Under the pieces are notes generated by a model, which searched no databases, had not been told where the DNA came from, and saw only the letters and a program-made list of their open reading frames with translations. From NCBI GenBank assembly GCA_963701995.1, contig OY969693.1, forward strand, positions 743,724 through 807,723: DNA of 64,000 nucleotides, in the 5' to 3' direction. The translations under genes were made by a program, and so were the position numbers. This stretch comes from Methanobacteriota archaeon (GTDB taxonomy: Archaea > Halobacteriota > Bog-38 > Methanoflorentales > Methanoflorentaceae). This document shows, one piece after another, positions 17,960-64,000 of the stretch (position 1 is its first letter; each line of letters opens with the position of its first letter).

Positions 17960-18392
17960 AATCCCGGCAATCCAGCTTGTGCGGAGGAATTTGGGGAGTT
18001 GGTCGTTGGAGCGGAGTGCTGGGCGTCTCGTGTTTATGGCGGCAACACTGGTTGCCAACCATTACCTGATTGAAAAAGGTAGTCATCTCAAGTTCAAAAT
18101 CAGAAAAAGGTTTCAAAATCACGGTGAGGGTTCGTTATACCCTGACCGGTTCGATACTGGAGTTTGAGGCCCGCTGCTCGCCCTACCTCGAATCGTCTCT
18201 TGTTCGTGCGGCGGACCCCACTCCATATTGGCCGCAGCAGCTTTGCGGTTGCGATAATTTTCTATTTACAGTGTAGGCGAGGCCGCTTTAAGCACCTTAC
18301 GGTTTTGTCTTGCGGGTGCGTCGCATATTCGCTGTTTTCTTAAGTTATGCGCTGGAGCCGTCGCCCCGGAGCTGTGACACAAACGCGGTGTC

Positions 18393-18450
18393 ACGCGTTT
18401 ACACGCAATTCCTGCCTCACGCGTTTACACGCAATTCCTGCCTCACGCGG
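18393..18450. repeat. tandem direct repeat, 26-bp unit CACGCGTTTACACGCAATTCCTGCCT x2 plus a partial third, preceded by a 7-bp-stem hairpin
   Basis: Read directly from the sequence; lies 35-90 bp upstream of the ORF at 18486. Confidence 0.6.
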
Positions 18451-26808: not shown

Positions 26809-27331
26809 AGGTACCTCGGAAGTAGGCTAGTGCCGCGGCGCAAATAGCTTTCGTTTGACCGTCTCACCTTTCTCACTCGCAGTGATTTGAACCGGTCTCA
26901 ACTTCAGGCGAGCTGCTAGTTGGGAATGAGTAGGTGCTTCTGCGTCAAGCAGGCACATTGACCGCCGATCACTTCTGCGCCCGGTAACTTCGGTTGAGCA
27001 CCACGGTGACGCGAGAGGTGAAGTGGCTAATACTAGTGCAAACACAGTGACTATTTATGACTACACAGGAGCGCAAGCCAAAAGAGCCCAGTTTTGTCAC
27101 AGGCCAAGAAGCTCTAATATATGAAGTCGAACGGGCGTGTGGCCAATTAAACAAGCTTAAGGACTTGCAACTAGACGAGCCTTTTTTGCGTGCGGTGGCT
27201 GCGGAAATACGAGCGCACATGAACCACTTAGGGGCAAGCTTGCAGAGCTTAACGGAGCCTTGTGGCTAATGACTGTAGCTAAAACGGCTCGCGCTTGCCA
27301 AGGAGCCTCCTCGGCTTCAGCCCTGCTGCGA

Positions 27332-27601
27332 TCAACTCTCACGTCTGTCCGCGTCGCCTTGCCTACCAACAATCGTGCCCAGCACAAGGCGCTTACTTAG
27401 AGGGCTAAGATACGTGTGACGTCTTTCTTTTTCTTGCCCTTCTCGCTCCACATCCCTGAAGCACGAAACGAGCGCGTCGAGTGCCTGCGTATCATCTAGA
27501 CTAGCCTCGGACTTCTCATAAGCTTTTGTCTTGACCTCTGAAAGCGCGCGGCTCAATAGCTCCGCGTCGCTGCCCGTTAAGATTAGCCCACTTTCTATCA
27601 T
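27332..27601 (-). CDS. small-protein paralog A of a three-copy family (89 aa)
   Basis: MIESGLILTGSDAELLSRALSEVKTK...; AGGAGG Shine-Dalgarno motif upstream; paralogs at 44108 and 60516 share the leader. Confidence 0.5.
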   Translation of the reverse strand: MIESGLILTGSDAELLSRALSEVKTKAYEKSEASLDDTQALDALVSCFRDVEREGQEKERRHTYLSPLSKRLVLGTIVGRQGDADRRES

Positions 27602-27713
27602 CTTTCCCCTCCTGGTCGGTGATTTTTACATGAACTACGTGACATAATGCATGATCGCTTTGTTCTGACGCCGATATTAGCGCCAAAATGGCCTTCATTC
27701 GCCGTGAAGAGAG

Positions 27714-27857
27714 TTAAGCAAGCTTCAAAGGGTAAATGGCCACTGGGCTAGTCTCTGATGTAGCGCGGACGGCGTACTCCTCACAATACGAAACGCCCTC
27801 CCTATCGCCACGCTGCTTACAATGGGCGTACTTTTCGCACCTTTGGCAGTTCATCAT
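27714..27857 (-). CDS. Cys-rich mini-ORF (47 aa) inside repeat family R3
   Basis: MMNCQRCEKYAHCKQRGDREGVSYCEEY...; similar mini-ORFs at 32220-32327 and 31232-31303; coding status uncertain. Confidence 0.2.
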   Translation of the reverse strand: MMNCQRCEKYAHCKQRGDREGVSYCEEYAVRATSETSPVAIYPLKLA

Positions 27858-28070
27858 ATTTGCATTTCATGAATGGCAGAGTAAAGAAGCCTATCCGCGC
27901 GGGGGGAAACTAACCGGGCCAGAAATATCCGGCGATTTGTTCCTCCAACGCGCTTTGCATGTTATGTCTCCATGTGCGTAAGGGTCGCTCGCAAATTCAC
28001 CATCTAGTCGGGTAGGAAATCGTCAAAAGCCCTAATCTGCTTGCCATTGGAGGGCGCATAGACGTTATCC
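27761..28070. repeat. dispersed repeat family R3, copy 1 (about 310 bp)
   Basis: About 80-85% identical to 32234-32530; its 3' half recurs inverted at 58909-59045. Confidence 0.6.
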
Positions 28071-32170: not shown

Positions 32171-32233
32171 AATAGCACCCACTCATTTCGTTTACGATCC
32201 CCTTAGCTCGCCCTGCTAGTTAGTTTAGGATAA

Positions 32234-32530
32234 AGCGCGGACGGCGATATTCTTCGCAATACGGAACGTGCTCCCTATCGCCACGCAACCTACAATGGGC
32301 GTACTTCTCGCACCTTTGGCAGTTCATCACGGGCGCATTTCATGAGTGTAGCGTAAAGAGGGCTATCCACGCGGTGGGAAACTAACCGTCGCCAGGAATA
32401 CCAAAGTCAGCGCATCGGCGATTTATTCCTCCAACGCGCTTTGCATGCCATGTCTCATGTGTGTAGAGGTCGCTCCCAAATTCACCACCTAGACGGGCAG
32501 GAAATCGTCAAAAGCCGTAATCTGCTTGGG
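32234..32530. repeat. dispersed repeat family R3, copy 2
   Basis: Aligns with 27761-28070 in the same orientation; contains the mini-ORF MNCQRCEKYAHCRLRGDREHVPYCEEY on the minus strand (32220-32327). Confidence 0.6.
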
Positions 32531-35137: not shown

Positions 35138-35380
35138 AGAAAAAGAAAGGTTGATTCGCGCGCGAGTATTCTGAACTTCACCAAGTATAGGTGCGCGATC
35201 GTTCTCCATATCGGCTAGTATCACAGATATCACCGATCCGGCGTACTCGCATCCGCGTGTAGCCTAGGACGATTTTATAACTATATTATGGTGAACCGGC
35301 ATACGCGGTGACGAATTGCCCCACATCGGGCCCTGCGATCTCGAGCGCAAGACATCCAGATCGTAAGGCAACAGCAAACT

Positions 35381-40401: not shown

Positions 40402-40756
40402 GCCAGTTTATCAGCTTACCGGAGCGCTTTTCATTTCGCCAAAAGGAAGCCAGATCGGGCGTCTTTCTAGGGACGCGGCAGCAACCTCCGTTGCACGTGT
40501 AACTGGGCTTCCAACCATGGCCGCAGTTGCCGTCGAGGATTTCTAATTCCGGAGACCATCAGGATTGACCTCGTGAAGCAGCGATTTGGTCGTTCGTATA
40601 GCCCCGCCACATACACACGTATTACGGCGGCCCCATCATTTGACAAAATGCACGTTTTTTGACAAGTATGCTATCCCAAAAAGAGACATTTTGCGCCTCA
40701 GCCACTGATAGCATCCCGAACCACAAAATAATTTTCGCGCGTAAGCGATCAGAAAG

Positions 40757-41206
40757 TTATGTGCCCTCTTTGACTGTCCTAGCTGTCCGCACGTAGGCAG
40801 CCAACAAGACGATCGTGATAAGCGGCACAATAATATCATCGTAAAGAGCTCCGCCAGCGTTACCAGCGGCATAATTGCCGTGCACAATGATATCCATAAT
40901 GTGCCCATAGGCTGCCCCCCACAGAAATATCGTCGTCGCTATGACCGTTGCCACCCAGTAGTTGCCTCTGAGCCAAATACAGGTGATGCCCAGAATCCCG
41001 ATGGCAAGGTTGGCAAAGCCGACTTCTTGCTGGAATGGACTTCCTGTCGCCCATCCGATATTGGTCGCGACGCTATCAGCAAAAAAGACGTGTCCAACAA
41101 AGCCGATAAGAGAAGCGATCCCGACGCTGATCACTAAGAAGGAGAGCAGAAACACCTCTATCACGCGGTGCCGCGTCCGAGGCTGCTTGTCAACGAGAAG
41201 GTACAC
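40757..41206 (-). CDS. membrane protein (hypothetical)
   Basis: 149 aa, four hydrophobic helices. Confidence 0.5.
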   Translation of the reverse strand: MYLLVDKQPRTRHRVIEVFLLSFLVISVGIASLIGFVGHVFFADSVATNIGWATGSPFQQEVGFANLAIGILGITCIWLRGNYWVATVIATTIFLWGAAYGHIMDIIVHGNYAAGNAGGALYDDIIVPLITIVLLAAYVRTARTVKEGT

Positions 41207-41455
41207 GATCGCAACGACAATGCTGAGCAGGATGTAGAGGTATGCTGTGTCGAAATTGGCCGTTTGATCACCTTTGAGCGTGTTATGCAGTCTGGAGCAT
41301 GAGTTCCTCGTTTATGATCCTGCCGTTTTGTAATAGTGAGCAACTGGTGACCCTGCGGCTCCCTGCGCCAAAGGTTGGGTTTTGGAGCCGGATTTTTGGC
41401 GGCGGTAGAAAAAAGGAAGAGTAAGGCCATCGCATGGGGAGAGAGGGACAAAAAA

Positions 41456-43347: not shown

Positions 43348-43720
43348 CTTTTCTCTCCGTGAAATGACGAACAGTTATATTTTCTTTACACGATCTCTAA
43401 TTCGTTAATTCGACGTTTTGCTAGAGCCAAAACGTTGAAATCGCGTTCGCTGATTTTTGTCGTTGCTTGAACATACCAAGCCCAATTTTATTTACATCTT
43501 TTCCGCTGAAAGCGTGCAAGATGATCGCCGCCGACCGTGTCGGCATTGTAGTCACCGAGGAGCGTTCCGCCAGGTGAGACCAAATGATATGCAGGCCGCG
43601 ACGTTTTGGGCCGCCTGCAGCCCGGATCATCAGCACTGGCTGTCCCTGTCCGCGCACTTCGAAATATATTTGAGAATTGCGTTCTGCGTCGTCTTAAAGG
43701 CTTTAATACGCTAAATTTGT

Positions 43721-43967
43721 CGTCTCAAGGGAAACCGCCGTAACGTACTAAATTTGTAATAAAGCTTCAAATAGGTTTTTTGGTTATACTATTGTTGCCT
43801 CGGTTTAGCATTTCTAAGGCTGTGAAACCGCTCCGGTTCCATGGGTCGATGCTTGGTCCAAATAAGTTCGTGTGACTTTTTTAGAAGTACGCGGGGTGGT
43901 TAACAGCCTTAGTTGCCTCTTGTTCTTCTTTCAACACCTAAACTCGCAGCTTACGATCATCGTAAGA
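43721..43967. repeat. repeat family R2, copy 1 (about 245 bp) directly upstream of the small-protein leader
   Basis: About 95% identical to 60127-60370; no frame-conserved ORF between copies; contains a 10-bp inverted repeat pair (43814-43829 and 43898-43912). Confidence 0.65.
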
Positions 43968-44107
43968 GTGCGGCCATTTACCTATTGAAGCTTGCTAAGT
44001 GCGCATAGATAGGAATAACGGGCGGTTTGACGCTATTATTGACGTCGAAAAAAGCGATCACGCTTAATGTCATGTGTTCATGTAAAAACACCGACCAGGA
44101 GGGAAAG

Positions 44108-44483
44108 GTGATTGAGAAGGGATTAATCTTAACGGGCAGCGACGCGGAGTTATTGAGCCAGGCGCTTGCGGAAGTCAAAACAAAAGTCTCTGAAGAGTCC
44201 GATGCTAGTTTAGATGATACTCAAGCACTGGATGCACTCGTTTCGTGTATTAGAAATGGGGAAAAAGAAGGACAGCAGAAAGAAGGACAGCAAGCGTCGT
44301 AGCCTCTTACGCAAGCGCCTTATCTTGGGCACGCTTCTCGATAGGCAAGGCCGCGCGGATGGAAAGAAACGCATACACTTCATCCAGAGCCCGGTGTCCT
44401 TGATTCTCGCACATTTCTTCTATTTTGGCCGTGCGAGCTCACTAAGTCCTCCTTTTTTTCAGCTGCGGCAAACCGCTAGATAA
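44108..44483 (+). pseudogene. small-protein paralog B, frameshifted
   Basis: GTG start after AGGAGGG; the first 64 codons match paralogs A and C, then TAG at 44300-44302, while the conserved C-terminal segment (LRKRLILGTLLDRQGRADG) continues in another frame. Confidence 0.4.
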
Positions 44484-51339: not shown

Positions 51340-51831
51340 ACGGTTGCAATTTGGAGCGCGATTCGTCGAGGTGTAGCAGGACCAAGAAATCAGTCCACAA
51401 ATCGACAAAAATTCAACCTCAGACCGTCAAAAGTGGGGGCTCTGGGCCAGGAGGGAGCCAGCGTGACAGCCCATGGCCCAGACGATCTGCTTCACCACTG
51501 CCCCCCAAAGGAGATAATACGTGGTGTTGCGGCACTAAAGACCCGCGAAGTAGCATAAACGTTTCCGGTGTTTGATGACGACTGGCGCAAAAACGCGTGC
51601 CGGGGCGAATGAAACACACGGAGATCCGCTCGGTCGAGGCATAAGGCGCTGCTATGAGTATGAGGTCAAACGCGTGAGGTGTCACGTCAACAGAACCTAC
51701 ATCTCTCCTGCAGCGGCCTTACGCGCGTTTACCAGTATTTTCTTTCCATATAAACGTAGGGAGCTCAGAGCGGGCGATCTCTTAAAAAATAACGCTCCAA
51801 AGCATTGTAAAACCTGCAATGGCTCCGAAAA
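51340..51831. repeat. composite repeat (degenerate R3 3' part + R4), copy 1
   Basis: 51397-51831 aligns with 59041-59526 at about 80% identity with indels; reading frames are not conserved between copies. Confidence 0.55.
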
Positions 51832-52562
51832 CACTGGTGCAAAATTGACGAGAGATTATGCGAACGGTCCGGTCTCGTCGCTGATGCTTAGTGGTCAGCA
51901 TCCGTTTGTTTCGAGCCGTGGCTCCGGAACCATCTAATGATACACTTGATATAGAGATGCTGATAAGAAGGTCACGCGATAAAGCGACAAAAGACTTTTT
52001 GTCGCCATCATACTAGTTTACGGAGAAAATTCGGGCTGATATCGGATGACCCAAGCCTGCCGGCCGTCCATGCAATGAACAAGTCAGCGATGGTGCTAAT
52101 GTCTGTGCGAGGTGAGGTGCGTTGGACGATAGCTTGCGCGACGCCGAAATTGCGTTGGATCTAGATAAGAACATCTGTCCGGCATGTGGCGTGGCGTATA
52201 CTGAAGAGACGAAGTTCTGTCAGAACTGCGGCAAAAGACTCGAGGTCGCCCCCGCTAAACGAGAGAGAAAATTTCTGCTCTGGCTGCGGCGCCTATTACG
52301 TCGAACACGCTGAAATTTGCCGCAGCTACAGAAAAGCATTTGCGCCTGCGCCTCGAGAAATCGGCCTACGTGCAAACGGTGAATTGGAAGATTGGCGCTT
52401 ATGCCACCTTATAACGATCCTTAAACCTGCACCACCATTTAAGTGTGAAAAAATGCAAAAATGGAGGGGGCTCCCGACAAAAAAATGGGAAATGCGTATT
52501 TACATCAATCAGAATGTTTTTTTGGCGCGCTCTCAAGCGCGTCGACAAGGAGTTGAAATACA

Positions 52563-56887: not shown

Positions 56888-57000
56888 ACCATTTACCCTT
56901 TGAAGCTTGTTTAGAGCATGCCTCAAAGAATAACGGCCATTTTAACGCTAATATTGGCTCAGAAAAAAGCGATCGTGAATTACGCTTCTTGGGAATAGAA
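56888..57000. repeat. solo copy of the small-protein leader (no downstream paralog gene)
   Basis: GACCATTTACCCTTTGAAGCTTG...AACGGCCATTTTAACGCTAATATT aligns with the leaders at 27602-27747, 43968-44107 and 60371-60515. Confidence 0.5.
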
Positions 57001-58471: not shown

Positions 58472-58908
58472 GGATAGACTCGACTTTATGACATCTTTTC
58501 ACACGGTCTCGTCTCAACCAGTCTATCCGCTTGGAAATATGGAAAGTAAGCTACTTGATCGTCACTCGCGTTTTCTTTTCTATTTCAGTAGGCTCCTTCT
58601 TTGGCAAATTAAGCTCAAGCACTCCGTTCTTAAACGACGCTTGTGCCTTGTCCGGCAACACGTCGGCAGGCAGGTCAAGCGCACGTCGGTATGACGCATA
58701 GCCGCGTTCGCGCCCGTCACAGCCACCATCGAGACGAGCACGATGGTGGCCATGGCGATACTTAACATACTAATTTTGTATTTCATCAAATACACCTTGC
58801 TTCCGTTGGCGGGTTTTGCAATGTGCGAGGACACCATCCATGCATACCCGCCCGGCAAAGGGGTTCGTTCCTAAATTGCGTACCTATACGATTCTTAGTA
58901 ATAAAGGT

Positions 58909-59526
58909 TGGTTAACGCCTGTGCGCTCTCCAATGGCAAGCAGATCACGCATTTTGACCTTGGCCTGCTTGTCTAGGTGGTGAATTTGGGAGCGACCCCT
59001 ACACACACGGGAGATATACCATGCAAAGCGCGTTGGAGGAACAAATCGACCAAAATTCAACCTCAGACCGTCAAAACTGGGGGCTCTGGGCCAGGAGTGA
59101 CAGCTCATGACCCAAAGCGATTTGCTTCACCACTGCCACCTAAGGAGATAATCCGTGGTGTTGCAGAAGGCAAAGACTCATGAAGCAGCATAAATGTTTC
59201 CGACATTTGGTAACGAACGCAAAAACGTGCGCTGCAGGGGGGGATTACACAAGATTCGGGCGCCGTGGGGAGCATAAGGCGCTGATGAACATGAGGTCAA
59301 GCGCGTGCATCATCACGTAGACCGTCTGTGGCAGGCACCTCGAAGCGACGCCAGTCGGGTCAAGCGTGCGGCATCACGTAAAGGAACCTACATCTCCCGC
59401 TACAGCGCCTTATGCGCGTTTTTCTGGTTATTTCCTTTGAATATAAACGTGGGTAGCTCCGAGCGGGCGCTCTTTTGAAAAATAACGCTCTAAAGCGATT
59501 TAATACCTGCAATGGCTCCGAAAAAA
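58909..59526. repeat. composite repeat (inverted R3 3' part + R4), copy 2
   Basis: 58909-59045 is the reverse complement of the R3 3' half; 59041-59526 aligns with 51397-51831 and has an internal duplication of about 50 nt. Confidence 0.55.
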
Positions 59527-59710
59527 CGGTAGAGCTTTAAGGAGAGAATAAGCGAATGTGCTATACCAACGACCGGTTAGTTCTACCACGCGCATAGCCC
59601 CCTATGCAACTTTTTGCCAATGTTTTCTTTGGAAGCTTCAAGTAGTACAAGGGTTTGTCACAAATGTTTAAGTCGCCCACTGTTAGAGCATTCAACAAGG
59701 AGATGACGCA

Positions 59711-60010: not shown

Positions 60011-60126
60011 TAACTGCTCTTTTTATCAGCTGCCGCTCACGAGTAGGCCAGCAAAACGAACTTTGGAAGTGCCGGAGCCGAGCTTGCGTTCAAGGCGTGC
60101 ACAGATCCGAATCTATGCTAACTTAT

Positions 60127-60370
60127 CGTCTCGAGGGAAACCGCCGTAACCTACTAAATTTGTAATAAAGCTTCAAATAGGTTTTTTGGTTATACTATTG
60201 TTGCCTCGGTTAGCATTTCTAAGGCTGTGAAACCGCTCCGGGCATGGGCCGATGCTTGGTCCAAATAAGTCCGTGTGACTTTTTTAGAAGTACGCGGGGT
60301 GGTTAACAGCCTTAGTTGCCTCTTGTTCTTTTTTTAACACCTAAACTCGCAGCTTACGGTCAGCGTCAGG
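60127..60370. repeat. repeat family R2, copy 2
   Basis: About 95% identical to 43721-43967 and, like it, placed directly 5' of the conserved leader. Confidence 0.65.
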
Positions 60371-60515
60371 GTGCGGCCATTTACCTTTTGAAGCTTGCTT
60401 AACGCTCTTCGCGGTGAATAACGGCCATTTTGACGCTAATATCAGCGTCAGAACAAAGCGATCATGCATTATGTAAGGTGGCGCACACAAAAAGTACCGA
60501 TAAAGGAGGAAAAAA

Positions 60516-60800
60516 ATGATTGAAAGCGGACTAATTTTAACCGGCAGCGACGCGGAGCTATTGAGCCGTGCGCTTTCAGAAGTCAAAACAAAAGTCTATG
60601 AGGAGTCCGAGACGAGTCTAGATGATACCCAAGCACTCGATGCACTCCTTTCGAGTTTCAGAACTGCGGAGACCGAAGAACGGGCAAAAGAACGAAGTCA
60701 CGCGTATCTTAGCCCCTTGGGTAAGCGCCTTATGCTTGGCACGATTATCCATAGGCAAGGCGGCGCGGACGGCCATAAGAGCGGCTCGCAGCAGAGCTAA
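60516..60800 (+). CDS. small-protein paralog C (94 aa), apparently intact
   Basis: MIESGLILTGSDAELLSRALSEVKTKVYEESETSLDDTQALDALLSSF...; AAAGGAGG 8 nt upstream. Confidence 0.55.
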   Translation: MIESGLILTGSDAELLSRALSEVKTKVYEESETSLDDTQALDALLSSFRTAETEERAKERSHAYLSPLGKRLMLGTIIHRQGGADGHKSGSQQS

Positions 60801-60897
60801 ACGCCGGAGGGGACTCTTTTGCAAGCGCGGCTGCAGTTTTAGTATACTTTTCTTTTCAACGGAGCGTCCCGTTTCCCTGCGGCTATCTCTTGGCTAA

Positions 60898-61281: not shown

Positions 61282-61441
61282 TTTTAGATCCTCGGTTTTA
61301 CATATATGCGGACTGTCCGTCACACGATCATCGACGTGAGAGTATCGACCATATATTTGCGGTCAATCGACCCGGATAGCTGAATCGTAAAATCGGTTCC
61401 GCGTCCACGCCCGCGCCCTTTTCAGTGTATGTCAACTATCC

Positions 61442-62248
61442 TCACACTAAATCTTTAAGCGCATCCAACAAAGCCTTTCGCTCGACTGAGCCCGTCGGAG
61501 ATATGTAGAAATCAACGCCACGACCTCTTCCACGCCCTTTTCGTTCAACTTCAACATAACCGTACAACTCCAATTCAGCAGTGAGTTCGGAAAGGGTCTT
61601 GTGCGAGACCTGTTCACGTCCGTTAAGCCTCATAATATTGTTAAATTCCCTATAAACCTCAGTTGGCGACTGCTTTTCCTCTTTACTGTATACGGTTTCT
61701 AGCAACACCTTCTGATGTGGTGAGAGACGTACCACTTCTCTGCGTAACAACGACACTTCTGCAAGTCGTTCCGCACGACGCACATCCTCTTCTGCAACAG
61801 TCGTTCGCCCTTCTTCTTCACAAAGGTCAGCAGCAGTTGATAGCAAATCAAGCGCATATCGGGCATCGCCGTTTCTCTGTGCCGCTAATGCAGCGCATAA
61901 CGGAATCACTTCATCGCTCAGCGCATTCGGATAAAACGCCTGTTCAACGCGATACTCCAGAATATCCCTTAACTGAGGCGCGTCATAAGCCGGAAAAGTA
62001 ACATCTACATATACATACGATGACTGGTCACGGGCGTCGGTGATTAGTGTAGGGAAGTCATATTTGTTCGTGATCCCGATAAGACAGATGTTAGAATCTC
62101 GCGTGAACTTGTAGATGGGGCTATATTCGTCTTTTCTGTTCTTAATGAGCATTTTGTCTATCTCATCGAGAATAATGATCGCAATATTCCCTTTGACCTT
62201 CTGTTCGATTTTTGTCCAGTACTCGTTAGTTTTAACCGGTTGCTTGTT
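61442..62248 (-). pseudogene. orc1: Orc1/Cdc6 replication-initiator gene remnant lacking the Walker A region
   Basis: Open frame includes Walker B IAIIILDEID, FPAYDAPQLRDILEYRVEQAF, CAALAAQRNGDARYALDLL and the C-terminal winged helix; upstream it stops at TGA (62249-62251), the preceding PYRV-like segment is in another frame, and no GxxGxGKT motif is found. Confidence 0.7.
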
Positions 62249-62374
62249 TCAATTCCAAAGTTGCTAGCAATAGTCTTGAGAATTTGATAAATTGACGTTC
62301 ATAATCCTAGCTATTGGATTCATACTTCATCTCCTTGCAGTAGAAACAAATACGTGAGACGGGGTCATTGAAGG

Positions 62375-62409
62375 TTAATAATTGCTATCTACGTTAATTA
62401 TTGCTATCT
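62375..62409. repeat. direct repeat TTAAT(A/T)ATTGCTATCT x2 at the 5' boundary of the Orc1 remnant
   Basis: Two 16-bp units separated by 3 nt; overlaps the stop of the small ORF at 62394-62612. Confidence 0.5.
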
Positions 62410-62612
62410 GCGGTCGCAGCTACGCGGTTTAGCGCTCTGGCCAGCCGGATTGCGAGAGCAAGAAGTGAGTCAAGCTGCTCCTGCTGAGAATCGCACGGAT
62501 GCCATAGCGCGTTTATCTCTTCCAGGCTATTAAGGCGGTGCGAGGCGTGCATCTCATCGTCAGCAATAGCCTCGCGTGTCGTTTCAATATCGGCGTCAGT
62601 GTCGGTCATCAT
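62394..62612 (-). CDS. small acidic hypothetical protein
   Basis: 72-aa ORF whose start overlaps the stop of the upstream surface-protein gene by 4 nt (ATGA). Confidence 0.35.
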   Translation of the reverse strand: MMTDTDADIETTREAIADDEMHASHRLNSLEEINALWHPCDSQQEQLDSLLALAIRLARALNRVAATADSNN

Positions 62613-63133
62613 TTTCCCCTCAGCAAGATAACATAAACCGCTCCAATAGCCACGAGCGCAAAGACTCCAAAAGCCCCAGCAATGAGAGGCACGTCTGCGC
62701 CTTGCGGTGGTGCGGGTGCATTGCCTTGGACTGTGTAAGTGATGTTAGCGCTTAGCGCTGGGCGCGCTGCCGATGTCGTATTAACGAGCATGCTTGAGCT
62801 AAAATTGCCGTCCTTGGCGTCGCTCGGTACGTCAAGCCTCACGGCCACCGTTACGTTTGAGTTTGGAGCGATTGCCACGCTTGCTGGGCTCGCGTTTAGC
62901 TGTCCGCTCGTATTCGTAACATTGGTGAAGGTGATAGAATAAGCGAGCGTCGAATTGCCGCCGGTGTTGTAGAGTATGACGTCTCGCTCTGCGCTACCTC
63001 CGCGTCCGACCGTGCCGAAATCAATACGGACTGATGAAACGCCTATCCCTACTTGTGCATTAATTAAAGCACTCACTACAATAAGAAAAACAAAGAAAAG
63101 AGGCGTTAAGCATCGTCTCACTCTAAAACTCAT
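62609..63133 (-). CDS. cell-surface protein with signal peptide, many N-glycosylation sequons and C-terminal membrane anchor
   Basis: 174 aa; N-terminal hydrophobic signal, at least eight NxS/T sequons, C-terminal hydrophobic helix ending LRGK (PGF-CTERM-like). Confidence 0.5.
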   Translation of the reverse strand: MSFRVRRCLTPLFFVFLIVVSALINAQVGIGVSSVRIDFGTVGRGGSAERDVILYNTGGNSTLAYSITFTNVTNTSGQLNASPASVAIAPNSNVTVAVRLDVPSDAKDGNFSSSMLVNTTSAARPALSANITYTVQGNAPAPPQGADVPLIAGAFGVFALVAIGAVYVILLRGK

Positions 63134-63293
63134 TATGCTAGACTCCTTTTTTTAGACTTAAATCGCTATTGCCATAAGCGTTGAAACTGCTGTAAATCCC
63201 TGAGAATCCACCTGACACTTGCGGCCCATCACGCGACTACGATTGTGCTTTTCATAAACGGGTGAGGGGCACAGTGGCACGATTTTTTGACAA

Positions 63294-63887
63294 TCATTCG
63301 CGTTTGAAAACCAGGCTGGGTTCCAATTGATTCCAGCTCTCATCTATCGATAGAGGCATTTTTAAACCACTCAGATGTCTGCTATTGTGTTTACTAAACA
63401 GGGCTTTCGTCTCAGCTCTCGTCAAGCCGAGTCGCTCTATGTATACATTTGTGATGTTCACAATGCCACTTATCAGAAGGCTTTGGTGTGGCTCAAAAGG
63501 AGCCTCGTTGTTACGTTCTCGTTCGCGTGTTGTGCTGTATTGTGGACCGTTTAGGTCTATATAACATACTTCGAGATGAGTCGCCAGCGCCTTTCTCAGT
63601 TTTTCTTCGTCTTTCTCGGCTTCTTCTTCAAGCAGCAGCGCTATACCTAGACGAGCGTTGCGGAACAGTACGAAGTTCCCCTCTTTGATGCCTTCCAATC
63701 CCTGCCTTTCGTATACGTTGCGTCGAATCGTGTGTAATGCGCTATGCAGTTGCTCGGGCGTCTCTTTTCCGTGTTTCTCTCTTTGTGCTGTTCTGATCCG
63801 CTCAAAGCGCTCTCTCTCCGCTTCGGGCATTTCTTCAAGTTCTCGTTTGATCGCCTGTTCGTCCTCAATATCCTCAGCTTGTGTCAT
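63294..63887 (-). CDS. hypothetical protein
   Basis: Start taken at the internal Met (MTQAEDIEDEQ); the track ORF extends to 63992; Glu/Arg-rich N-terminus, no recognisable motif. Confidence 0.35.
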   Translation of the reverse strand: MTQAEDIEDEQAIKRELEEMPEAERERFERIRTAQREKHGKETPEQLHSALHTIRRNVYERQGLEGIKEGNFVLFRNARLGIALLLEEEAEKDEEKLRKALATHLEVCYIDLNGPQYSTTRERERNNEAPFEPHQSLLISGIVNITNVYIERLGLTRAETKALFSKHNSRHLSGLKMPLSIDESWNQLEPSLVFKRE

Positions 63888-64000
63888 GCGTACTTCTCTT
63901 CTATCTCCACGGCGAGACTTGAAGATAGGTTTTTTGCAGCCCAGATGTTTTTGGTGCCGGTCGCGGGCGCTCTCTCCGTTGTTCTTCCACAAGCCTGGCA

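What the first reader, a model, noticed from the sequence alone, without database searches (positions are those of the whole stretch)
61442..62409. Truncated, frameshifted Orc1/Cdc6 gene bounded by a direct repeat
The minus-strand ORF preserves Walker B, sensor regions and the winged-helix C-terminus of Orc1/Cdc6, but the frame closes at a TGA (62249-62251), the next upstream segment is in another frame, and no Walker A motif is found. A direct repeat TTAAT(A/T)ATTGCTATCT x2 (62375-62409) sits at the truncation boundary. This could be a decayed extra initiator copy, as often found in integrated archaeal elements, or the relic of a disrupted origin.
Basis: partly seen in the sequence, partly recalled or inferred. 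Interest (0 to 1): 0.5.

Follow-up and report, generated by a model that had tools for sequence, protein, structure and literature searches.

The report
Dead plasmid-type Orc1/Cdc6 gene relic
This is the dead, 5'-truncated and frameshifted remainder of a replication-initiator gene (Orc1/Cdc6) that came in on a plasmid-like mobile element and now lies in a patchwork of element debris in an archaeal chromosome; it is an ordinary gene relic, not a broken replication origin.

Summary
The sequence-level observation holds. The minus strand of 61442-62298 encodes residues 91-376 of a 376-aa Orc1/Cdc6. Walker B, sensor 1, sensor 2, lid and winged helix are kept. A 4-nt deletion at 62236/62237 shifts the frame, and Walker A is absent.

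Intact homologues at 84-94% identity show that the gene stops abruptly at 62298. There it is joined to the upstream region and first 8 codons of an unrelated element gene. The first 90 codons are therefore lost by recombination, not by sequencing error.

The 19-nt tandem repeat (62374-62411) is real, but it lies 77 nt beyond the truncation point, in DNA of different origin. It is single-copy at the same position in a related element and occurs nowhere else in 604 kb of related loci. It does not resemble the iteron arrays upstream of intact copies, so it is not an ORB.

Directly after the relic's stop codon lies a second, older relic: the last 38 codons of a different Orc1 family (61323-61436).

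Related peat-soil archaeal MAGs carry many such relics, about half with extra stops or frameshifts. The closest named relatives are the Cdc6-like genes of Methanothermobacter plasmids.

Verdict: a decayed mobile-element initiator gene in a mosaic of element remnants. It is a new member of a known kind and of low interest.

The parts
61442..62236 (-). Type-A Orc1/Cdc6 relic, residues 113-376 plus stop codon (61442-61444). The frame is open, and the longest start-codon ORF begins at ATG 62152 (M141, 236 aa). It contains Walker B (62162-62176), sensor 1 N169 (~62066-62068), the lid (~61769-61969), sensor 2 R238 (~61859-61861) and the winged helix (~61445-61729).
   Evidence: 90.5% nt and 94% aa identity to the intact gene in L001.
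62237..62298 (-). Type-A Orc1 relic, residues 91-112, in a different reading frame. A 4-nt deletion (TCTC in homologues) between 62237 and 62236 separates it from the rest.
62299..62392 (-). Foreign segment fused to Orc1 codon 91. It is homologous to the upstream region, Shine-Dalgarno-like GGAGATGA and first 8 codons (ATG at 62321-62323) of a 203-aa element gene of L002/L003, and is also present in L010. Read from that ATG it gives only a 19-aa peptide, MNPIARIMNVNLSNSQDYC*.
   Evidence: blastn 80.6% over 98 nt, E=2e-16; alignments; translation.
62374..62411 (.). Tandem 19-nt repeat: GTTAATAATTGCTATCTAC / GTTAATTATTGCTATCTGC on the + strand, 17/19 identical. The proximal copy (62374-62392) is orthologous to a single copy in L002/L003. 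The distal copy (62393-62411) is specific to the window and supplies the stop codon of the truncated 72-aa ORF.
62428..63160 (-). L003-like segment (94.5% nt identity). It carries the 174-aa secreted Ig-like-fold protein gene (62609-63133) and a 72-aa ORF (62394-62612). The 72-aa ORF is a C-terminally truncated version of a 90-aa gene. In L002/L003 these two genes directly follow the intact orc1; here they lie upstream of the relic.
63280..63940 (-). Gene of a 197-aa ORFan family (63294-63887 from the ATG), 91.5% nt identical to a gene that also precedes an Orc1 relic in L010. The family is widespread in Halobacteriota MAGs and has no Pfam or PHROG match.
61323..61436 (-). Second, older relic: the last 38 codons of a type-B Orc1 (P0027/P0024 family, 48-49% identical to the window's type-A relic), with one in-frame stop (IVDIH*KGRGRGRGTDFTIQLSGSIDRKYMVDTLTSMIV*).
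   Evidence: 92% aa identity to P0027 residues 346-383; 83.5% nt to the intact gene in L035.
60375..60842 (+). Repeat segment carrying a conserved 94-aa ORF (60516-60800), convergent with the Orc1 relics. The same gene lies downstream of intact type-B orc1 (L035) and of Orc1 relics in at least 8 other loci. Two further copies lie in the window.

Best explanation
The feature is a non-functional relic (pseudogene) of a plasmid-type Orc1/Cdc6 replication-initiator gene. It lies in a patchwork of at least four mobile-element fragments at the end of the window (about 60.4-64.0 kb).

Inferred history:
1. A type-B element (orc1-B, then further genes, then the convergent 94-aa gene) was present.
2. 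A type-A orc1 (L001-like) displaced all but the last 38 codons of orc1-B.
3. An illegitimate recombination or deletion then removed the type-A origin region and codons 1-90, including the Walker A P-loop. Codon 91 became joined to the start of an unrelated gene from an L003-like element.
4. A 4-nt deletion added a frameshift.
5. A further deletion in the L003-like part truncated a 90-aa gene. It left a duplicated 19-nt piece of upstream, possibly promoter, DNA at the joint.

Shown: the homologies, the joints, the missing motifs and the absence of origin repeats. Inferred: the order of events, and that nothing functional is made. Without a P-loop, without the element's iterons and without a start codon in front of Walker B, the remainder cannot act as an ATP-dependent initiator.
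For: - The domain content and the missing N-terminus are established.
- Homology breaks sharply at 62298, where the flank switches to the L003 11387-11484 homologue.
- There is a 4-nt deletion.
- The intact relatives are 376 aa long and element-borne. The nearest named relatives are plasmid genes.
- Iteron arrays lie upstream of intact copies and are absent from the window.
- The type-B tail lies immediately after the type-A stop codon. The same A-then-B-relic arrangement occurs in L001, L024, L034 and L046/L049.
- The genes that follow orc1 in L003 lie upstream of the relic here, and one of them is truncated.
- Related MAGs carry about 20 such relics with breakpoints scattered over codons 91-330. 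Roughly half have extra stops or frameshifts.
- An independent relic next to FTR is near-identical in 8 metagenome contigs from different samples and shares a 2-nt frameshift.
- GC content is 45-49% in 58-64 kb, against about 53% in the rest of the window.
Against: - The last 264 codons have no stop.
- Substitutions specific to the window lineage are 13 synonymous against 2 non-synonymous. dN/dS against other copies is 0.03-0.07, as low as between intact genes. So either the truncation is recent or the C-terminal part is still constrained. The data cannot separate these, because no copy with the same joint was found.
- No integrase, tRNA gene or att site was found in the window to define an integrated element.
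- The window ends at 64000 and the rest of the genome could not be fetched.
Confidence: 0.85

Rival explanations
1. The remainder is still used. A 236-aa protein (lid plus winged helix, from ATG 62152) is made and binds origin repeats of related elements. It would act as a decoy, incompatibility factor or repressor rather than as an initiator.
For: The frame stays open for 264 codons. Change on the window lineage is strongly biased towards synonymous substitutions (13:2) and dN/dS is 0.03-0.07. The DNA-binding winged helix and lid are intact. Many relics in related genomes also keep the 3' part.
Against: - The truncation points differ between loci (codons 91, 145, 200, 278 and others). The low dN/dS is therefore explained by divergence of the intact parents before independent, recent truncations.
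- About half of comparable relics carry stops or frameshifts in the retained part. The FTR-linked relic carries the same frameshift in all 8 near-identical contigs examined.
- No start codon precedes Walker B. The only promoter-like DNA upstream drives a 19-aa out-of-frame peptide.
- The excess of 3' relics is partly a detection bias, because 5'-only relics also exist.
Confidence: 0.07
2. It is the remnant of a chromosomal replication origin. The orc1 gene was the host's origin-adjacent initiator and the 19-nt repeats are degenerate origin recognition boxes.
For: Archaeal origins usually sit next to orc1 genes (established knowledge). Cumulative GC skew peaks near 61 kb. One 2-mismatch match to a canonical ORB core lies at 62335-62347.
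Against: - The ORB-core match is at chance level: 2 found against 1.3 expected. It is not conserved in L003 or L010.
- The 19-nt unit is single-copy in the orthologous upstream region of another gene and absent elsewhere.
- The DNA carrying it is not the native upstream region of this orc1.
- The native upstream iterons are absent.
- The nearest relatives are plasmid- or element-borne.
- The skew turn covers only 3 kb of genes that all lie on the minus strand.
Confidence: 0.03
3. It is a sequencing or assembly artefact. The gene is intact in the organism, and both the frameshift and the truncation come from errors or a chimeric join.
For: The source is a metagenome-assembled 2.1-Mb contig, and small indels occur in such assemblies. 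The region is rich in repeats shared between elements.
Against: - The joint at 62298 has only a few bases of microhomology and no shared repeat long enough to mislead an assembler.
- The 90 missing codons are nowhere in the window.
- The deleted TCTC is not a homopolymer.
- Equivalent relics with other breakpoints are found in many independent assemblies.
Confidence: 0.03

Closest known systems
Archaeal Orc1/Cdc6 initiators (Aeropyrum pernix ORC1, PDB 2v1u; Sulfolobus solfataricus Orc1-1 and Orc1-3, PDB 2qby)
   Same: The relic aligns to residues ~128-357 of these ~386-aa proteins (E~1e-32). It has the Walker B, sensor 1, sensor 2, lid and winged-helix regions, and matches Pfam Cdc6_lid and Cdc6_C.
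   Different: It lacks the first 90 residues, including the Walker A P-loop. It carries a frameshift and has no start codon before Walker B. No origin repeats lie next to it.
Cdc6-like replication genes of Methanothermobacter plasmids (records NC_001336, 13,514 nt; NC_001337, 11,014 nt; NZ_AP025699). From memory, the first two are pFV1 and pFZ1.
   Same: They are the best-matching named relatives of the intact type-A protein: 40-42% identity over 79-97% of the protein. They are carried on small extrachromosomal replicons, consistent with the element-borne context of intact type-A genes.
   Different: Identity is only about 40% and the host order differs. The window copy is chromosomal and dead.
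Extra orc1/cdc6 copies in integrated or captured extrachromosomal elements of archaeal chromosomes, as in haloarchaea and Sulfolobus. The idea of origin capture (Robinson and Bell 2007) is cited from memory. PMC3936714, on multiple replication origins in Haloarcula hispanica, came up but only its title and abstract were seen.
   Same: It is an additional, non-core initiator gene of mobile-element origin sitting in a variable chromosome region.
   Different: Here both the gene and its origin have been destroyed, so no extra origin function can remain. Two successive relics (type A, then the type-B tail) lie head to tail.
Origin recognition boxes (ORB and mini-ORB) and plasmid iterons
   Same: The intact type-A elements have iteron-like 17-nt repeats in both orientations in a ~700-nt region upstream of orc1.
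   Different: The window's 19-nt tandem repeat has a different sequence. It has only two adjacent copies, lies in another gene's upstream region and is not repeated in relatives.

Membership tests
Orc1/Cdc6 AAA+ initiator (functional member) | Walker A P-loop (GxxGxGKT) | tested here: not met
   GPTGSGKT is at residues 59-66 of P0001. Window homology starts at residue 91, and tblastn finds no other piece in the window.
Orc1/Cdc6 AAA+ initiator (functional member) | Walker B, sensor 1 and sensor 2 of the AAA+ module | tested here: met
   IIILDE (62162-76), CLIGITN and GDARY are present in the open frame and align to P0001 and to 2v1u. However, Walker B lies upstream of the first start codon.
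Orc1/Cdc6 AAA+ initiator (functional member) | Cdc6 lid domain and C-terminal winged-helix domain | tested here: met
   PF22703 at E=1.7e-28 (98.7 bits, cut-off 27) and PF09079 at E=6.7e-9 (36.1 bits, cut-off 25.1).
Orc1/Cdc6 AAA+ initiator (functional member) | One uninterrupted reading frame of about 370-400 aa with a start codon | tested here: not met
   The gene is truncated at codon 91 and has a 4-nt deletion at 62236/62237. The longest ORF is 236 aa.
orc1-adjacent replication origin (ORB or iteron array plus AT-rich stretch) | Several copies of a recognition repeat, usually in both orientations, next to the orc1 gene | tested here: not met
   The iterons of intact type-A loci are absent from the window at up to 3 mismatches. 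The canonical ORB core is found only at chance level. The 19-nt repeat has two adjacent direct copies only and is single-copy in L003.
orc1-adjacent replication origin | Origin activity or initiator binding | not testable with these tools
   This needs marker-frequency analysis, 2D gels or binding assays.
Integrated mobile element (integrative plasmid or provirus) | Integrase gene and flanking att repeats, often at a tRNA gene | tested here: not met
   The window has no tRNA gene. Integrases from related loci give no match better than E=0.016. No flanking long direct repeats were found. The element may run past the window end at 64000.
Integrated mobile element (integrative plasmid or provirus) | Gene content shared with mobile elements, patchy distribution and deviating composition | tested here: met
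   Segments at 60.4-63.9 kb match four different element-like loci in different arrangements. Intact relatives sit with ParA, a D5 primase, restriction-modification genes and integrase fragments. GC is 45-49% against ~53%. There was no match in IMG/VR and only 3 distant matches (~25% identity) in the GenBank phage collection.

The most novel reading that the evidence does not exclude
The head-to-tail relics here (type-A orc1 lacking codons 1-90, followed at once by the last 38 codons of type-B orc1) may record a recurrent, directional process. The same A-then-B-relic order occurs in several other loci, and related genomes hold many 3'-retaining relics. In this reading, incoming plasmid-like elements replace the replication module (origin plus the 5' part of orc1) of resident elements, or integrate into the 3' part of resident orc1 genes. 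Alternatively, the retained lid and winged-helix ORFs are kept as origin-binding decoys against related elements. Either reading would make these relics more than random decay.
Probability: 0.08. Interest if true: 0.5.

Novelty: new member of a known kind. Interest (0 to 1): 0.2.

Why it matters
On its own it matters little. It adds one more decayed, element-derived initiator gene to an archaeal chromosome, and it should be annotated as a pseudogene rather than as a replication protein or an origin marker.

It has some wider use. The intact relatives define a previously unnamed family of Orc1-encoding, iteron-bearing elements in peat and fen Halobacteriota MAGs. The nested relics show how quickly their replication modules are exchanged and destroyed. 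Origin-prediction pipelines that rely on orc1 adjacency would produce a false origin call here.

Tried and rejected
- Junction search. An exact 22-mer across the 62298 joint gave no hit in the metagenome collection. No orthologous same-joint copy was available for a clean dN/dS test.
- Fetching the rest of the source genome. Exact-protein look-ups for the 174-aa, 236-aa, 197-aa and 94-aa products all failed. Yet three proteins (the 197-aa protein, fumarase and UvrB) are in the protein collection on a 2,115,296-nt contig. Nothing beyond 64000 could therefore be seen.
- Viral origin. There were no relatives in IMG/VR. The GenBank phage collection gave only ~25%-identity hits, in a haloarchaeal virus (SNJ2) and a Haloferax phage. 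PHROGs gave nothing for the neighbouring genes.
- Rfam and tRNA scans of the window found nothing.
- Neighbouring ORFs (141, 94, 72 and 197/232 aa, and several genes of related loci) have no Pfam match. The 174-aa protein has only sub-threshold Ig-like-fold hits.
- Population dN/dS on the FTR-linked relic. The 8 contigs are virtually identical (0-1 differences in 827 nt), so the test was uninformative.
- Directional 5' truncation. In the genome scan most relics keep the 3' end. However, the search patterns favoured the conserved C-terminal half, and an N-anchored scan found 3-4 5'-only relics among 15 evaluable loci. The asymmetry is not established.
- The type-B tail as an att site. L013 has two direct copies flanking a DUF6790 gene. 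The window's own DUF6790 gene (40757-41206) has no such flanks. This was not pursued further.

Full report
**What is in the sequence.** On the minus strand the frame is open from 62248 down to the stop at 61442-61444. It reads NKQPVKTNEYWTKIEQKVKGNIAIIILDEIDKM...ALLDALKDLV*. It matches Pfam Cdc6_lid (E=1.7e-28) and Cdc6_C winged helix (E=6.7e-9). It also aligns to residues ~128-357 of the solved archaeal initiators 2v1u and 2qby (E~1e-32). The next 22 residues (TSIYQILKTIASNFGIETSNRL) lie in another frame at 62233-62298. The longest ORF with a start codon begins at ATG 62152 (236 aa), just after Walker B. No Walker A and no other fragment of this gene exists anywhere in the 64-kb window, whether searched with close or distant Orc1 queries.

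**Mapping the break with intact homologues.** A protein search found full-length 373-395-aa homologues at 84-94% identity on metagenome contigs, beside many shorter pieces. In P0001 the P-loop GPTGSGKT is at residues 59-66 and Walker B at 132-137.

DNA comparison with the contigs carrying these genes (L001-L004) shows that window 61442-62298 equals gene positions 271-1131 (90.5% identity to L001). Homology then stops dead at 62298. Alignment shows two lesions:
- A 4-nt deletion (TCTC in L001 and L003) between 62237 and 62236. This is the frameshift.
- A joint at 62298/62299. On the gene's upstream side the sequence switches to a homologue of L003 11387-11484, which is the upstream region, a Shine-Dalgarno-like GGAGATGA and the first 8 codons (ATG at 62321-62323) of an unrelated 203-aa gene. 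In L003 that gene lies 3 kb downstream of orc1.

Read from that ATG the window gives only MNPIARIMNVNLSNSQDYC*. The first 90 codons were therefore removed by recombination or deletion with only a few bases of microhomology. Resequencing cannot restore them, and there is no long shared repeat at the joint that could have misled an assembler.

**The direct repeat.** The repeat is real: two copies of TTAATWATTGCTATCT against 0.05 expected by chance. It extends to 19 nt at 17/19 identity, at 62374-62392 and 62393-62411. It is not at the truncation boundary.

The proximal copy lies inside the foreign 203-gene upstream segment and has one orthologue in L002/L003 (GTGGATAGTAATTGTTAAG). L010, which shares the downstream part of that segment, lacks it. 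The distal copy is specific to the window and sits at a second joint. Beyond it, 62428-63160 is 94.5% identical to L003 8357-9086. That stretch holds the 174-aa and 90-aa genes which in L003 directly follow orc1. The 90-aa gene is cut to 72 aa here and takes its stop codon from the distal repeat copy.

A search at up to 4 mismatches over 604 kb of related loci finds no further copies. The array scores below TRF's minimum of 30, whereas the window has 19 TRF rows that reach it. I read the repeat as a small tandem duplication of upstream DNA created at, or surviving next to, a deletion joint. It may be TATA-containing promoter DNA, which is inference only.

**Not an origin relic.** Upstream of the intact type-A genes in L001-L004 lies a ~700-nt intergenic region with at least 5 copies, in both orientations, of a 17-nt iteron (ATACAYnAYnRATACAC). 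A second repeat (TATGTATGyTTCGAnTTGTAA) occurs twice as a direct repeat in L001 and L003 and as an inverted pair in L003 and L005. This is a typical initiator-adjacent origin layout. Neither motif occurs in the window at up to 3 mismatches.

A canonical ORB core (TTCCAGTGGAAAC, up to 2 mismatches) gives 2 hits against 1.3 expected. The one at 62335-62347 is not conserved in L003 or L010. The fall of cumulative GC skew after 61 kb covers only 3 kb of genes that are all on the minus strand, so it says nothing about an origin.

**A second relic and the mosaic.** Immediately after the type-A stop codon, 61323-61436 encodes IVDIH*KGRGRGRGTDFTIQLSGSIDRKYMVDTLTSMIV*. These are the last 38 residues of a different Orc1 family (type B: P0027 and P0024, 48-49% identical to the window's type-A relic), with one in-frame stop.

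The same order, type-A orc1 followed by a 5'-truncated type-B relic, is seen in several loci:
- after intact type-A genes in L001 and L034 (B residues 235-383) and L046/L049;
- after a type-A 3' fragment at the contig start in L024.

Downstream, the conserved 94-aa gene (60516-60800, convergent) also follows intact orc1-B in L035 and Orc1 relics in at least 8 loci. Upstream, 63280-63940 (a 197-aa ORFan family) is 91.5% identical to a gene that precedes another Orc1 relic in L010.

The 60.4-64.0 kb region is thus a palimpsest of at least four element lineages in an arrangement found in none of the reference loci. Its GC content is 45-49%, against about 53% elsewhere. The rest of the window is ordinary chromosome, with UvrABC, fumarase, succinate dehydrogenase and similar genes. 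Exact matches place it on a 2.1-Mb contig. A same-cluster (at least 90% identity) fumarase homologue is named 'Halobacteriota archaeon'.

**Element nature of the family.** Intact type-A genes sit with ParA, a D5_N primase-helicase, an HTH_17 protein and type I restriction-modification genes (L034). In L033 they sit with a primase-polymerase-like protein and integrase fragments, and in L002 with an integrase fragment and many ORFans. The best named relatives are Cdc6-like genes of Methanothermobacter plasmids, at 40-42% identity. There was no match in IMG/VR, and only ~25% identity to genes of haloarchaeal viruses. No integrase, tRNA gene or att repeat was found in the window itself, so the borders of the debris field are undefined. 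It may continue past 64000.

**Is the remainder still used?** Against other copies the relic shows dN/dS of 0.03-0.07, as low as between intact genes. Changes specific to the window lineage are 13 synonymous to 2 non-synonymous. The compared relics have different breakpoints (codons 91, 200, 278), so this divergence was accumulated by intact parents. It shows only that the truncation is recent relative to a dS of about 0.3.

Across 28 genome loci, breakpoints are scattered (codons 91, 109, 145, 166, 199, 214 ... 327). About half of the relics carry further stops or frameshifts. An independent relic beside the FTR gene of a methanogen shares a 2-nt frameshift across 8 near-identical contigs from different metagenome samples. 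These facts favour neutral decay.

The apparent rule that relics keep the 3' end is weakened in two ways. The search patterns were biased towards the conserved C-terminal half. An N-anchored scan also found 10 full-length genes and 3-4 5'-only relics.

**Verdict.** The interpretation 'decayed extra initiator copy from an integrated or mobile element' is supported. 'Relic of a disrupted origin' is not. This is a new member of a well-known kind and of low interest. The modestly interesting side results are the nested A/B relics and the iteron-bearing intact element family in peat-soil archaea.

Noticed in passing
window 61323-61436 (- strand): The last 38 codons of a second, different Orc1 family (type B, P0027-like, 92% aa identity) with one in-frame stop. 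They start 5 nt after the stop codon of the type-A relic. The same A-then-B-relic order occurs in L001, L024, L034 and L046/L049.
   Followed up: yes
window 27279-27741, 43714-44362, 60120-60842: Three copies (76-83% nt identity) of a ~0.4-0.65-kb segment carrying an ~90-aa ORF (MIESGLILTGSDAELLSRALSEVKTK...). The ORF has no Pfam or PHROG match. The same gene lies near Orc1 relics in at least 8 related loci and downstream of intact type-B orc1 in L035. The copy at 44027-44302 has a divergent start and end.
   Followed up: partly
window 27645-27742, 43974-44059, 56889-56982, 60377-60471: A ~95-nt sequence present four times in the window (75-80% identity). Three copies lie inside the ~90-aa-ORF repeat segments listed above, upstream of the ORF. 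The fourth, at 56.9 kb, stands alone next to the LMWPc phosphatase gene.
   Followed up: no
window 27749-28070, 32221-32528, 58910-59048; 51397-51864 and 59041-59556: Further dispersed repeats (77-85% identity) link the low-coding stretch at 58.9-59.6 kb to sequences at 27.7, 32.2 and 51.4 kb. Pieces also match L013 and L002/L003. The 58.5-60.4 kb stretch has almost no long ORFs and looks degraded.
   Followed up: no
L001 540-900, L003 6510-6870 (also L002 and L004); second repeat also L005 2434-2655: A putative element origin. At least 5 copies of a 17-nt iteron (ATACAYnAYnRATACAC) lie in both orientations in the ~700-nt region upstream of intact type-A orc1. A second repeat (TATGTATGyTTCGAnTTGTAA) occurs twice directly in L001 and L003 and as an inverted pair in L003 and L005.
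   Followed up: partly
window 18391-18449: A perfect tandem repeat of a 26-nt unit (TCACGCGTTTACACGCAATTCCTGCC), 2.3 copies. This is the strongest tandem array in the window.
   Followed up: no
L013 10894-10959 and 11622-11690; window 40756-41337: In L013 two direct copies of the ~66-nt type-B Orc1 tail flank a ~0.6-kb segment carrying a DUF6790 gene. That segment is 83.5% identical to window 40756-41337, but the window copy has no such flanks. It could be an att-like duplication or a chance arrangement.
   Followed up: partly
window 58551-58661 (- strand): A short ORF ending ...DKAQASFKNGVLELNLPKKEPTEIEKKTRVTIK looks by eye like the C-terminal end of a small heat-shock (Hsp20-type) protein with no N-terminal part. 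It may be another gene fragment. It was not tested against a profile.
   Followed up: no
window 35274-35357: A weak tblastn match (E~0.02, 43-54% identity over 24-28 aa) to the N-terminal part of the short tyrosine-integrase-like proteins found in L002 and L033. It may be an integrase fragment or chance.
   Followed up: no
L037-L044 (metagenome contigs): An independent type-A Orc1 relic, truncated near codon 115 and sharing a 2-nt frameshift at gene nt 780. It is virtually identical in 8 contigs from different samples and lies two small genes away from FTR (formylmethanofuran-H4MPT formyltransferase) in a methanogen genome.
   Followed up: yes
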